Shown: positions 6,001 to 9,000 of the stretch, piece by piece | Position numbering within the stretch: position 1 is the first letter of the stretch | How the letters are laid out: every line of letters starts with the position of its first letter | NCBI RefSeq assembly: GCF_054482525.1 | Contig: NZ_CM137006.1 | Direction: 5' to 3' (one strand) | Length of the DNA: 64,000 nt | Program-made: the position numbers

Positions 6001-9000
6001 TATCCAGATAGTTCACCAGCTCTTCATCATTGAGTTTTTTCTTAAGCACAAAGGAAAATAGCCCGCTGCTACCTGTAAAGTCTCGTTTCCAGAATTCGTG
6101 GCCTTTACTGCCAGGCAGAGCAGGGTGGTTAACTCGCGCTACTTGCGGATGTTCTGCCAGCCATTCAGCCACTTTCAGACTGCTTTCATGATGTTGACGC
6201 AGGCGAACACCCAAAGTGCGCAGGCCACGGCTGGTTATATAGGCGGTATCGGCATCGACCATCTGCCCCATCAGATAGGCATTCTCCCGCAGCTGCTCCC
6301 AGCAACGGGCATTGCATACGGCAGTACCAATCATCGCATCTGAATGCCCCACCAGATATTTGGTGGCTGCCTGAATGGAAACATCAATGCCAAAATCCAG
6401 CGCCTTAAACAGCACACCGGCCGCCCAGGTGTTATCGATCATAATGATGGCATCCGGCACCACACTGCGCACGGCGGCAACAATCGCCGGAACGTCGTGG
6501 ACTTCCATGGTGATGGAGCCTGGGGATTCCAGAAACACGATTTTAGTGTTTGGCTGCACATGTTTAACGATATTTGCGCCAATCAGCGGATCAAACCACG
6601 ATGTCGTTACGCCCAGTTTGCTGAGGATTTTGCTACAGAAATCCTGACTCGGTTCATAGGCGGTGTTGGTCATCAACACATGATCGCCCTGTTCGACAAA
6701 AGCAAGAATAGAATTAGCAACCGCCGCCGCCCCGCAGGGGAACAGCACGCAGCCTGCGCCACCCTCCAGTTCGCACATCGCTTGTTGTAAGGAAAAATGG
6801 GTTAACGTTCCGCGCCGTCCATAAAACAACTCGCCATTGGCGCGATTGCGCGTCGCGTGTTTTTTGGCTTCCACACTGTCAAAGACCAGCGAAGAAGCGC
6901 GCTGAATCACGCTATTTACCGCGCCGAGAGTGTATTTTTTGCTGCGTCCTGCGTTCACCAGTTGAGTATCAAGCTTTTTGTCCGCCATGTCGGGATTCCT
7001 GTTTTTATACGTCTGGATGTCTAAACTAGCATGAATATTCGCGGGCGCATCCTGAAGAATTGGCATAAAGCAGAAAATTTTCGCAAATGGCGTGCTGGTG
7101 ACTTTTTTACTGCGTAAACGCAAGGAAAAGAAAGCAAAGGTACGGCAGTATGCAAATAGTAATGAGAACGACTATCAATTCGACGTCGTTTTGATATTAT
7201 TATGCGCAGATTTTGTGACTTGCGTCCTGGAGATACACAGTGGGTAATAATTTAATGCAGACGGACCTTTCCGTCTGGGGTATGTATCAGCACGCCGATA
7301 TTGTCGTTAAGTGCGTGATGATTGGGCTTATTTTGGCCTCCGTAGTCACCTGGGCAATCTTCTTCAGTAAGAGCGTAGAGTTCTTCAATCAGAAGCGTCG
7401 CCTTAAGCGCGAGCAGCAACTGCTGGCTGAAGCGCGTTCCTTAAACCAGGCCAACGATATCGCCGCTGATTTTGGTAGCAAAAGCTTAAGCCTGCATTTG
7501 CTCAATGAAGCGCAGAATGAGCTGGAACTGTCAGAAGGCAGCGACGATAACGAAGGTATTAAAGAACGTACCAGCTTCCGTCTGGAGCGTCGGGTCGCCG
7601 CAGTAGGTCGTCAAATGGGCCGCGGTAACGGCTATCTGGCAACCATCGGCGCGATTTCGCCGTTCGTTGGTCTGTTTGGTACGGTCTGGGGCATCATGAA
7701 CAGCTTTATTGGTATCGCGCAAACGCAGACCACTAACCTGGCAGTCGTTGCGCCGGGTATCGCAGAAGCTCTGTTAGCAACGGCAATCGGCCTCGTGGCA
7801 GCGATTCCGGCGGTCGTTATCTATAACGTATTTGCACGCCAGATTGGCGGCTTTAAAGCGATGCTGGGTGATGTTGCAGCGCAGGTATTGTTGCTGCAAA
7901 GCCGTGACCTGGATCTGGAAGCCAGCGCCGCTGCGCATCCGGTTCGTGTCGCACAAAAATTACGCGCAGGATAATGTCCGATGGCAATGCATCTTAACGA
8001 AAACCTCGACGATAATGGCGAAATGCATGATATCAACGTGACGCCGTTTATCGACGTGATGTTGGTTCTGCTGATTATCTTTATGGTGGCGGCACCGTTA
8101 GCGACGGTAGATGTGAAGGTGAACTTGCCTGCTTCTACCAGCACGCCGCAGCCGCGCCCGGAAAAACCGGTTTATCTGTCGGTGAAGGCGGACAACTCGA
8201 TGTTTATCGGTAACGATCCGGTCACCGATGAAACAATGGTTACGGCGCTGAATGCGTTAACTGAAGGTAAGAAAGACACCACCATCTTCTTCCGTGCGGA
8301 TAAAACCGTCGATTACGAGACGTTGATGAAGGTAATGGATACGCTGCATCAGGCGGGTTATCTGAAGATAGGTCTGGTCGGCGAAGAAACCGCCAAAGCG
8401 AAATAAAAATGATGCCCGGTTGCTTTTCACAACCGGGCATTTTTTTAACCTAAATGCTCGCCGCCGCACACACCGTGCACTTCTGCGGTGACGTAGCTCG
8501 ACTCCTGACTTGCCAGATAAACATATACAGGGGCCAGTTCCGCCGGTTGCCCCGCACGCTTCATCGGCGTTTTCTGACCAAACTGCGGGATCTTATCCTG
8601 CGTCTGTCCGCCGGAAATTTGCAGTGCTGTCCAGATCGGGCCTGGCGCGACAATATTCACCCGAATACCTTTCTCCGCGACCTGTTTTGCCAGGCCTCGG
8701 CTGTAGTTCAGAATCGCCGCCTTCGTAGCCGCATAGTCCAGTAAATGCGGGCTTGGCTGGTATGCCTGGATTGACGAAGTGGTGATGATACTGGCACCTT
8801 TCGGTAGCAGGGGTATCGCTTCCTGGGTTAGCCAGAACAGCGCGAAAACGTTAATGGCAAAGGTCTTTTGAAACTGTTCGCTGGTGAGGTCTGCAATATC
8901 AGGAATGGCAACCTGTTTCCCGGCGACCAGCGCCATAATATCCAGCCCGCCTAACGCCTTGTGCGCTTCGTGAACCAGCGAACGGGCGAATTTCTCATCG

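What the first reader, a model, noticed from the sequence alone, without database searches (positions are those of the whole stretch)
6989..7239. Divergent metC-exbB control region with candidate MetJ and Fur sites
Met-box-like tandem 8-mers sit just upstream of metC and a Fur-box-like sequence upstream of exbB, consistent with the known methionine and iron regulation of these genes. Exact operator boundaries are not certain from sequence alone.
Basis: partly seen in the sequence, partly recalled or inferred. Interest (0 to 1): 0.15.

Follow-up and report, generated by a model that had tools for sequence, protein, structure and literature searches.

The report
Known metC–exbB control region, E. 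coli

Summary
Confirmed, and already known. Window 6989-7239 is exactly the divergent metC (5801-6988, minus strand) / exbB (7240-7974, plus strand) intergenic region of Escherichia coli. It is 100% identical to K-12 MG1655.

- **MetJ site.** The published metbox matrix finds one site: two tandem boxes at 7007-7022 (AGACATCC AGACGTAT on the metC strand), 18.92 bits, 18 bp from the ATG. This is the same site and score as in the published table. None of 5000 shuffles reached it.
- **Fur site.** I built a Fur matrix from 19 other K-12 sites, leaving exbB out. Its best hit in the whole 64 kb is 7161-7179 (AATGAGAACGACTATCAAT), 18.2 bits, centred 70 bp before the exbB start. Four of 5000 shuffles reached it. 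This is the published site confirmed by gel shift.
- **Conservation.** The Fur box, with a TGnTAnnnT extended -10 at a fixed 25 bp, is present in all 55 Enterobacterales loci that keep metC beside exbB. Its centre base is the main position that varies. The metboxes are kept in Enterobacteriaceae and Serratia only.
- **Published experiments.** MetJ binds the shared intergenic fragment in vitro, metC is a tested MetJ-regulon operator, and exbB is not MetJ-regulated in vivo. Fur occupies the region in vivo only when iron is replete. exbBD is in the core Fur regulon.

One loose end: a third conserved block (7103-7128) has no regulator assigned.

The parts
5801..6988 (-). metC coding sequence (cystathionine beta-lyase), 395 aa. 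The start codon reads as CAT at 6986-6988 on the + strand.
   Evidence: ORF and translation. RefSeq annotation of identical or near-identical DNA. tblastn gives 100% self-match and 58-98% identity to orthologues.
6989..7239 (.). The 251-bp divergent intergenic control region. It corresponds to K-12 NC_000913.3 3151985-3152235, read in reverse.
   Evidence: Identical to K-12. 41% G+C.
7007..7022 (-). MetJ operator. Two tandem metboxes, read on the metC strand as AGACATCC (7022->7015) and AGACGTAT (7014->7007), 18 bp upstream of the ATG.
   Evidence: 18.92 bits with the published matrix. Same entry in Table S1 of PMC3228920. 0/5000 shuffles. Mean identity 0.93 in 27 Enterobacteriaceae against about 0.5 in the spacers. 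The shared fragment is marked as MetJ-bound in a gel shift.
7023..7031 (-). Inferred metC extended -10 element, TGCTAGTTT on the metC strand, directly abutting metbox 1. The transcription start is therefore predicted inside the metboxes, near 7014-7018.
   Evidence: Inference from conservation. The TG (7031, 7030) and TA (7028, 7027) columns are at least 90% conserved while the 'n' at 7029 is only 10-20% conserved. The TGnTA core is seen in most genera displayed, including Erwinia and Pantoea, which lack metboxes. No transcription-start data were examined.
7103..7128 (.). Third conserved block, TTTTTTACTGCGTAAACGCAAGGAAA, with no regulator assigned. It contains the inverted repeats TTTAC-TGC-GTAAA and TGCGT-AA-ACGCA, and a CpxR-like direct repeat GTAAA-N5-GGAAA (7114-7128).
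   Evidence: Mean identity 0.84 against 0.50 and 0.56 in the flanking spacers. Alignment. Not conserved in Erwiniaceae. It partly overlaps a published CpxR box that rests on a scoring-matrix prediction only (7124-7138).
7149..7179 (.). Fur site cluster. The core 19-bp 9-1-9 inverted repeat AATGAGAAC-G-ACTATCAAT lies at 7161-7179 (centre 7170, 70 bp before the exbB GTG). A weak overlapping site lies at 7149-7167.
   Evidence: 18.2 bits and 1.55 bits with a matrix that excludes exbB; top hit of the 64-kb window. 4/5000 shuffles. It equals Chen et al.'s 19.1-bit, 3-walker, 31-bp cluster, confirmed by gel shift. Mean identity 0.97 in Enterobacteriaceae. A 15-23-bit site is present in all 55 Enterobacterales loci.
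7192..7200 (+). Inferred exbB extended -10 element, TGATATTAT (-10 hexamer 7195-7200). With a 17-bp spacer the -35 position falls at 7172-7177, inside the right half of the Fur box. The predicted transcription start is near 7206-7209.
   Evidence: A TGnTAnnnT motif lies exactly 25 bp after the Fur-box centre in 53 of 56 loci and 27 bp after it in the other 3. In the alignment only the two 'n' columns 7194 and 7198 vary within the motif. The generic -35/-10 scan found no promoter, which fits a weak -35. No transcription-start data were examined.
7229..7232 (+). exbB Shine-Dalgarno sequence GGAG, 7 nt before the GTG start.
   Evidence: Columns at least 95% conserved in the 27-sequence Enterobacteriaceae alignment and at least 90% in the 39-sequence set.
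7240..8406 (+). exbB (7240-7974, GTG start, 244 aa) and exbD (7981-8406, 141 aa). These are the operon placed under the Fur-controlled promoter.
   Evidence: Chen et al. found no Fur site and no gel shift upstream of exbD, so it is co-transcribed from the exbB promoter.

Best explanation
The gap holds two independent, back-to-back repressible promoters.

**metC side.** Two MetJ dimers, loaded with the corepressor S-adenosylmethionine, bind cooperatively to the two tandem metboxes at 7007-7022. These boxes abut the metC -10 element and cover the predicted transcription start. RNA polymerase is therefore excluded when methionine/SAM is plentiful.

**exbB side.** An iron-loaded (Fe2+) Fur dimer binds the 19-bp inverted repeat at 7161-7179, with weaker overlapping sites upstream to 7149. 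This site lies over the -35 position of an extended -10 promoter (TGATATTAT, 7192-7200). Fur thereby shuts off exbBD when iron is sufficient.

The two operators are 139 bp apart and do not cross-regulate.

**Shown:** site identity and scores, significance, conservation, published in vitro binding, and the published in vivo responses.

**Inferred:** the exact -10 elements, the transcription starts, and the steric-occlusion mechanism.
For: **MetJ**
- The published matrix gives 18.92 bits. This is the only strong site in 64 kb.
- It is identical to the published Table S1 entry.
- 0/5000 shuffles reach the score.
- The shared 400-bp intergenic fragment is marked as bound by MetJ in a gel shift, known E. 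coli MetJ-regulon operators were tested with lacZ reporters, and exbB is stated not to be MetJ-regulated in vivo.
- The boxes are 93% conserved in 27 Enterobacteriaceae, against about 50% for the spacers.

**Fur**
- The matrix built without exbB gives 18.2 bits, the top hit of the window.
- 4/5000 shuffles reach it.
- The site is identical to the K-12 site that Chen et al. scored at 19.1 bits and gel-shifted with 150 nM Fur.
- A ChIP-exo peak lies in this gap under iron-replete conditions only.
[quoted passage not shown]
- A 15-23-bit Fur site is present in 55 of 55 Enterobacterales loci. In Enterobacteriaceae variation sits almost only at the non-informative centre base. The spacing to a TGnTAnnnT -10 is fixed at 25 bp.
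Against: - No transcription-start or DNase-footprint data could be read, so promoter positions and the occlusion mechanism are inferred.
- The repression ratio for the metC reporter itself was not available; it is in a figure that is not held.
- The Fur score (18.2) is just below the lowest of my 19 training sites (19.4). Those sites are the strongest clusters in the genome.
- Chen et al. note that an earlier model (McHugh et al.) missed this site.
- The called K-12 ChIP-exo peak maps to window 7133-7155. Its centre is 26 bp upstream of the 19-mer centre, and it overlaps only the weak end of the cluster. Offsets of -14 to +28 bp occur at 18 other known sites in the same table, and ryhB is 126 bp off, so this is within the method's scatter.
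- The MetJ operator has the minimum of two boxes. It is absent from Erwiniaceae, Dickeya, Yersinia and Morganellaceae, so MetJ control of metC is specific to some lineages.
Confidence: 0.95

Rival explanations
1. The metbox-like and Fur-box-like strings are chance matches in an A+T-rich intergenic region and bind nothing of consequence.
For: The gap is only 41% G+C, and the Fur consensus is A+T-rich. Weaker Fur-like hits of 12-14.5 bits occur elsewhere in the window, some mapped inside genes.
Against: Shuffle tests give 0/5000 for MetJ and 4/5000 for Fur. The Fur hit is 3.7 bits above any other in 64 kb. Both sites stand out as phylogenetic footprints (0.93 and 0.97 identity against about 0.5). 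Published gel shifts, ChIP-exo and delta-fur expression data apply to identical sequence.
Confidence: 0.01
2. The region is a shared operator, so that MetJ also controls exbB and/or Fur also controls metC, as happens at the divergent pairs metJ/metB and fepA/fes.
For: The two genes share one 251-bp gap, and the arrangement is kept across Enterobacterales. The 400-bp exbB reporter fragment is bound by MetJ in vitro because it contains the metC boxes.
Against: [quoted passage not shown] The operators are 139 bp apart, and each sits on its own inferred promoter, with predicted transcription starts about 190 bp apart. The Fur box is conserved where the metboxes are not.
Confidence: 0.03
3. Further regulators act here besides MetJ and Fur. 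Candidates are CpxR (a published predicted box at 7124-7138), FNR (a published ChIP-chip peak near 7051), or an unidentified factor that binds the conserved block 7103-7128. This extends the main explanation rather than replacing it.
For: The block 7103-7128 is 84% conserved, against 50-56% in its flanks, in 27 Enterobacteriaceae. It carries GTAAA-N5-GGAAA, one mismatch from the CpxR consensus. Zhao et al. list metC and exbB among 'CpxR-regulated' genes. Grainger et al. list an FNR ChIP-chip peak labelled 'exbB/metC'. exbB is reported to be more repressed anaerobically.
Against: The CpxR box rests on a prediction from a very permissive matrix screen (about 13,000 sites). No gel shift for this locus appears in the main text. 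metC falls to 0.08 with NlpE overproduction and to 0.06 in the delta-cpxR background, so the effect does not depend on CpxR. The second half-site of the predicted box is kept in only 2 of 27 genera. No FNR-like site is present; the best match has 4 of 10 mismatches, and Grainger et al. list no site either. I looked for motif matches to the block after finding it, so those matches are weak evidence.
Confidence: 0.2

Closest known systems
E. coli K-12 metC MetJ operator (metboxes 'agacatccagacgtat', Augustus & Spicer 2011, PMC3228920; first described, from my own knowledge, by Belfaiza et al. 1986)
   Same: Identical sequence, the same two boxes, the same 18.92-bit score and the same 18-bp distance to the ATG.
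   Different: Nothing. It is the same element in another E. coli strain.
E. coli K-12 exbB Fur site (Eick-Helmerich & Braun 1989 'Fur box'; Chen et al. 2007, PMC2189734: 19.1 bits at -70, gel shift)
   Same: Identical 19-mer at the same position.
   Different: Nothing. My independent matrix gives 18.2 rather than 19.1 bits because exbB was left out of the training set.
Divergent regions served by a single operator: metJ/metB (MetJ) and fepA/fes or fepD/entS (Fur)
   Same: Back-to-back promoters in a short gap, repressed by the same two proteins.
   Different: There, one operator array is listed for both divergent genes. Here each promoter has its own operator for a different repressor, and the published reporter shows no MetJ effect on exbB.
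The tonB promoter Fur site, the partner gene of the Ton system
   Same: Fur repression of an energy-transduction component through a site footprinted at the promoter.
   Different: In the nine-strain study tonB falls in the accessory regulon, whereas exbBD falls in the core regulon.

Membership tests
MetJ operator (metbox array) | At least two 8-bp repeats related to AGACGTCT, tandem in exact 8-bp register. | tested here: met
   7007-7014 and 7015-7022 are adjacent with no gap. They match the consensus at 7/8 and 6/8 positions when read on the metC strand.
MetJ operator (metbox array) | Passes the curated matrix thresholds: each box at least 3.15 bits, and the array at least 12.58 bits. | tested here: met
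   9.96 + 8.96 = 18.92 bits. Only one other array passes in 64 kb, and weakly (13.44 bits). 0/5000 shuffles reach 18.92.
MetJ operator (metbox array) | Located in the promoter region of a methionine-pathway gene, typically within about 75 bp of the start codon. | tested here: met
   18 bp upstream of the metC ATG. It abuts the inferred -10 element.
MetJ operator (metbox array) | Direct MetJ binding and SAM/MetJ-dependent repression. | not testable with these tools
   Published for identical K-12 sequence. The shared metC/exbB fragment is marked as bound in a gel shift, and known E. coli operators were tested with lacZ reporters in wild type and delta-metJ. The metC repression ratio itself is in a figure I could not read.
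MetJ operator (metbox array) | A metJ gene is present in the genome. | not tested
   metJ lies outside this window. Its presence in all non-symbiotic Enterobacterales is reported in PMC3228920.
Fur box (Fe2+-Fur operator) | A 19-bp 9-1-9 inverted repeat related to AATGATAATnATTATCATT, with a matrix score in the range of proven sites. | tested here: met
   AATGAGAAC-G-ACTATCAAT scores 18.2 bits. The 19 proven or strong training sites score 19.4-28.6 bits. Chen et al.'s own model gives 19.1 bits. The score is marginally below my training range but far above background.
Fur box (Fe2+-Fur operator) | Overlaps the core promoter (-35/-10) of the repressed gene. | tested here: inconclusive
   A conserved TGnTAnnnT lies 25 bp downstream of the box centre, which places the -35 position inside the box. 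No transcription-start data were available, and the generic promoter scan found nothing.
Fur box (Fe2+-Fur operator) | Direct Fur binding in vitro and in vivo. | not testable with these tools
   Published: gel shift with 150 nM Fur on the exbB oligonucleotide. ChIP-exo peaks in MG1655 and W3110, the MG1655 peak under iron-replete conditions only, centred 26 bp from the 19-mer.
Fur box (Fe2+-Fur operator) | Expression of the downstream gene depends on Fur or iron. | not testable with these tools
   Published: exbB and exbD rise 1.9-5.5 log2 in delta-fur mutants of nine strains and are in the core regulon. Both are in the Fur-2 iModulon.
Fur box (Fe2+-Fur operator) | Conservation across species that exceeds the surrounding non-coding DNA. 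| tested here: met
   Identity 0.97 against about 0.5. A site is present in 55/55 Enterobacterales loci; in Enterobacteriaceae the main variable position is the centre base.
CpxR box (considered for block 7103-7138) | GTAAA-N5/6-GTAAA direct repeat, with CpxR-dependent expression and binding. | tested here: inconclusive
   7114-7128 has one mismatch to the consensus. The published predicted box 7124-7138 has two mismatches, and its second half is kept in 2 of 27 genera. The published qRT-PCR effect on metC persists in a delta-cpxR strain. No binding data for this locus were found. I do not file it as a CpxR site.

The most novel reading that the evidence does not exclude
The conserved 26-bp block at 7103-7128 (core CTGCGTAAGCGCAAGGAA in most genera) lies midway between the two operators, about 90-100 bp upstream of both inferred transcription starts. 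It could be the binding site of a regulator not yet assigned to this region. Such a regulator might act on one or both divergent promoters, for example by linking envelope or redox stress to Ton-system or cysteine/methionine-enzyme expression. The published CpxR and FNR leads touch this gap but neither explains the block.
Probability: 0.15. Interest if true: 0.25.

Novelty: already known. Interest (0 to 1): 0.06.

Why it matters
It matters little beyond annotation. The result shows that reading the sequence alone correctly recovered two textbook operators. It also gives them exact window coordinates and an inferred promoter geometry.

Two modest additions come from the cross-genus comparison:

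- The Fur-box-plus-extended -10 module of exbB is invariant in spacing across Enterobacterales. This includes genera whose ExbB carries a long N-terminal extension.
- MetJ control of metC is confined to certain lineages.

The unassigned conserved block is a small, testable lead.

Tried and rejected
- **Generic promoter and terminator scan of 6900-7330.** It found no promoter-like or terminator-like site. Both promoters appear to be of the extended -10 type with poor -35 elements, which that scan does not reward.
- **Rfam at permissive E-value on 6500-7700.** No RNA family matched, so no riboswitch or known small RNA is present.
- **Variation within E. coli (40-mer megablast for the MetJ, Fur and a control segment).** All three segments are near-invariant: 5384, 5389 and 5398 of 5426 genomes matched. 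A single mismatch in the central 16 bases would abolish a hit, so at most about 0.7% of genomes can differ inside either operator. The control spacer is just as invariant, so this test cannot discriminate.
- **Older literature.** Eick-Helmerich & Braun 1989 and Seo et al. 2014 are not held. Searches for a mapped exbB transcription start found nothing usable.
- **Extra metboxes.** I looked for a third metbox beside the pair and found none scoring above 0 bits. The palindrome CGACGTCG at 7181-7188 resembles a metbox core, but a hand calculation with the matrix gives about -0.9 bits, and it does not appear in the array scan.
- **Other motifs in the gap.** FNR and MetR consensus scans gave only poor matches.
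- **Mapping to strain 536.** I first assumed the window was colinear with strain 536. That was wrong for the distal part, and I corrected the mapping.
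Full report
**What is there.** The window is Escherichia coli. 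A 451-bp probe across the finding matches 5422 of 5426 complete genomes and is annotated metC / exbB. metC runs 5801-6988 on the minus strand, with its ATG read as CAT at 6986-6988. exbB starts with GTG at 7240 and is followed by exbD at 7981-8406. The finding's coordinates, 6989-7239, are exactly the 251-bp intergenic gap. This gap is identical base for base to K-12 MG1655 (NC_000913.3 3151985-3152235, reverse orientation). Every published K-12 experiment therefore applies directly.

**MetJ check.**
- I used the published information-weight matrix for metboxes (Augustus & Spicer 2011, PMC3228920, Table 3) with the authors' thresholds.
- The gap contains one array: ATACGTCT (7007-7014, 9.96 bits) plus GGATGTCT (7015-7022, 8.96 bits), 18.92 bits in total. 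On the metC strand this reads AGACATCC AGACGTAT, 18 bp upstream of the ATG.
- The paper's Table S1 lists exactly this sequence, score, box number and distance for b3008 metC.
- Only one other array in the 64-kb window passes the thresholds, and only weakly (13.44 bits, 59500-59515).
- No dinucleotide shuffle of the gap out of 5000 reached 18.92 bits (maximum 16.59). One pair did so across 40 shuffles of the whole window.

**Fur check.**
- No Fur matrix was available as text, so I rebuilt one. I took the centre coordinates of 19 strong or experimentally confirmed K-12 Fur sites from Table 4 of Chen et al. 2007 (PMC2189734).
- I converted these from the old to the current genome version by checking each against its stated distance to the gene start. 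I then extracted 19-mers, symmetrised them, and deliberately left exbB out.
- The matrix consensus is AATGATAATCATTATCATT.
- The best hit in the entire window is 7161-7179, AATGAGAACGACTATCAAT, at 18.2 bits, centred at 7170, which is 70 bp before the exbB GTG. The next best hit anywhere scores 14.5 bits.
- The exact score distribution gives 7e-5 to 5e-4 expected hits in the gap and 0.02 in 64 kb. Four of 5000 shuffles of the gap reached the score, and none of 40 whole-window shuffles did.
- This is the site Chen et al. report for exbB: 19.1 bits at -70, in a 31-bp cluster of three overlapping sites. They confirmed it by gel shift with 150 nM Fur, while a previously proposed site upstream of exbD neither scored nor shifted.

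**Conservation.**
- One scan of representative genomes with ExbB returned 80 loci. In 55 of them, from Escherichia to Photorhabdus and Providencia, metC lies divergently upstream of exbB.
- All 55 carry a Fur site of 15-23 bits. In Enterobacteriaceae the 19-mer differs almost only at the centre base (G/T/C), which is the uninformative position of the 9-1-9 motif.
- Metboxes passing the thresholds are present in nearly all Enterobacteriaceae loci (one metagenome-assembled genome lacks them) and in Serratia. They are absent from Erwiniaceae, Dickeya, Yersinia, Xenorhabdus, Photorhabdus and Providencia. This agrees with the published count of 81 of 119 species.
- In an alignment of 27 distinct Enterobacteriaceae gaps, mean identity to the window varies by segment as follows:

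| Segment | Mean identity |
|---|---|
| Metboxes | 0.93 |
| Fur 19-mer | 0.97 |
| The two -10 elements | 0.94 and 0.83 |
| Spacers | 0.50-0.56 |

**How it probably works (inferred geometry).**
- On the exbB side, a TGnTAnnnT motif (TGATATTAT, 7192-7200) lies exactly 25 bp after the Fur-box centre in 53 of 56 loci, and 27 bp after it in the other 3. In the alignment only the two 'n' columns vary within the motif. This is the signature of an extended -10 promoter.
- With a 17-bp spacer, the -35 position (7172-7177) falls inside the right half of the Fur box. Bound Fur would therefore block polymerase.
- The module is kept even in genera whose ExbB has 67-154 extra N-terminal codons, which explains why their Fur boxes appear far upstream. 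Serratia shows 80-81 extra codons, matching the published 325 versus 244 residues.
- On the metC side, the minus strand reads TGCTAGTTT (7031->7023). The TG and TA columns are conserved and the 'n' is variable, also in most displayed genera without metboxes.
- The metboxes start at the next base, so the predicted transcription start lies within them. Two cooperatively bound MetJ dimers would occlude it.
- These promoter assignments are inferences. I could not read any transcription-start or footprint data, and the generic promoter scan found nothing.

**Published function.**
- Augustus & Spicer tested the known E. coli MetJ-regulon operators and negative controls, using 400-bp upstream fragments driving lacZ in wild type versus delta-metJ, plus a gel shift. 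metC's metboxes are among their known E. coli sites.
[quoted passage not shown] The metC repression ratio is in a figure I could not read.
- The nine-strain Fur study places a ChIP-exo peak in this gap under iron-replete conditions only. The peak is at MG1655 3150091-3150113 in old coordinates, which equals window 7133-7155. The same study puts exbB and exbD in the 36-gene core regulon, rising 1.9-5.5 log2 in delta-fur strains. metC does not appear in its supplementary files.
- The peak centre is 26 bp upstream of the 19-mer centre. In the same table, 18 other Chen sites show offsets of -14 to +28 bp (for example fhuA +22 and fepA-fes +28), and ryhB is 126 bp off. I therefore read this as positional scatter rather than a different operator.

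**Loose ends.**
- A third conserved block, 7103-7128 (identity 0.84), has no assignment.
- It abuts a published CpxR box (7124-7138) that rests on a matrix prediction only. The second half-site of that box is kept in 2 of 27 genera, and the reported expression effect on metC persists in a delta-cpxR strain.
- A better CpxR-like repeat (GTAAA-N5-GGAAA, 7114-7128) lies inside the conserved block, but I found it after the fact.
- An FNR ChIP-chip peak was reported near window 7051 without a site, and I find no FNR-like motif.
- Rfam finds no RNA element.
- Variation within E. coli is too low to discriminate operators from spacers.

**Verdict.** Both the observation and the interpretation are confirmed. 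The elements are the known MetJ operator of metC and the known Fur operator of exbBD, now with exact window coordinates. Novelty: already known. Interest is low.

Noticed in passing
window 7103-7128: A third phylogenetic footprint in the gap (TTTTTTACTGCGTAAACGCAAGGAAA). Identity is 0.84 against about 0.5 in the flanks across 27 Enterobacteriaceae; it is absent in Erwiniaceae and deleted in Pluralibacter gergoviae. It contains the small inverted repeats TTTAC-TGC-GTAAA and TGCGT-AA-ACGCA, and a CpxR-like GTAAA-N5-GGAAA. No regulator is assigned.
   Followed up: partly
window 7124-7138: A published CpxR box, GGAAAagaaaGCAAA, predicted by scoring matrix only (PMC9600279). Its second half-site is conserved in only 2 of 27 genera. 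The reported repression of metC persists in a delta-cpxR strain, so the assignment looks weak.
   Followed up: partly
window ~7051 (K-12 old coordinate 3150195): A published FNR ChIP-chip peak labelled exbB/metC, with no site given (PMC1802558). The best FNR-like match in the gap has 4 of 10 mismatches. Other peaks in that table (nohA, nohB, hybO) are also Fur targets or Fur ChIP-exo peaks.
   Followed up: partly
window 7133-7155: The K-12 Fur ChIP-exo peak call maps here, 26 bp upstream of the 19-mer centre, and overlaps only the weak end of the predicted cluster. The W3110 call appears to map similarly, at about 7142-7154, if the coordinate offset derived from yqjH holds.
   Followed up: yes
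window 7181-7188: A perfect 8-bp palindrome, CGACGTCG, lies between the Fur box and the exbB -10 element. It has a metbox-like core but scores about -0.9 bits by hand with the metbox matrix and is only moderately conserved. Together with ATCAA (7174-7178) and TTGAT (7191-7195) it forms an 18-of-22 palindrome.
   Followed up: partly
window 7092-7247 (+) and 6857-7024 (+): Mechanical ORFs of 51 and 55 aa overlap the operators and promoters. Nothing is annotated here in K-12. K-12 locus tags skip b3004 and b3007, which suggests that ORF calls around here were withdrawn.
   Followed up: no
window 7240-7974 (exbB), RefSeq records: Many RefSeq E. coli records give exbB the product name 'tol-pal system-associated acyl-CoA thioesterase'. 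The K-12 record calls it Ton complex subunit ExbB. The first name looks like an annotation error that has spread between records.
   Followed up: no
loci L054-L084 (Dickeya, Serratia, Yersinia, Xenorhabdus, Photorhabdus, Providencia and others): ExbB carries 67-154 extra N-terminal codons in these genera, and the gap to metC is 460-770 bp when measured from the residue aligned with E. coli residue 1. The Fur-box-plus-TGnTAnnnT module is still present with identical 25-bp spacing. Yersinia, Providencia, Xenorhabdus and Photorhabdus have a second overlapping Fur site shifted by 6 bp (12-18 bits).
   Followed up: partly
window 580-598, 43204-43222, 60470-60488, 63045-63063: Weaker Fur-matrix hits of 12.7-14.5 bits. 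By alignment to strain 536, the first overlaps the yqhH start codon and the second lies inside sslE. The last two lie beyond the aligned part. They are probably chance matches in A+T-rich DNA.
   Followed up: no
window 59500-59515: The only other metbox-like pair in the window that passes the published thresholds: AAATATTTATACGTAT, 13.44 bits. It is A+T-rich and probably a chance match.
   Followed up: no
window 9862-34173: The window matches strain 536 at 98.7% over 1-9862 and at 97.6% over 34173-57300. It is about 6.7 kb shorter than 536 between those blocks, so an insertion or deletion separates the strains somewhere in this interval. DNA beyond 57300 was not compared.
   Followed up: no
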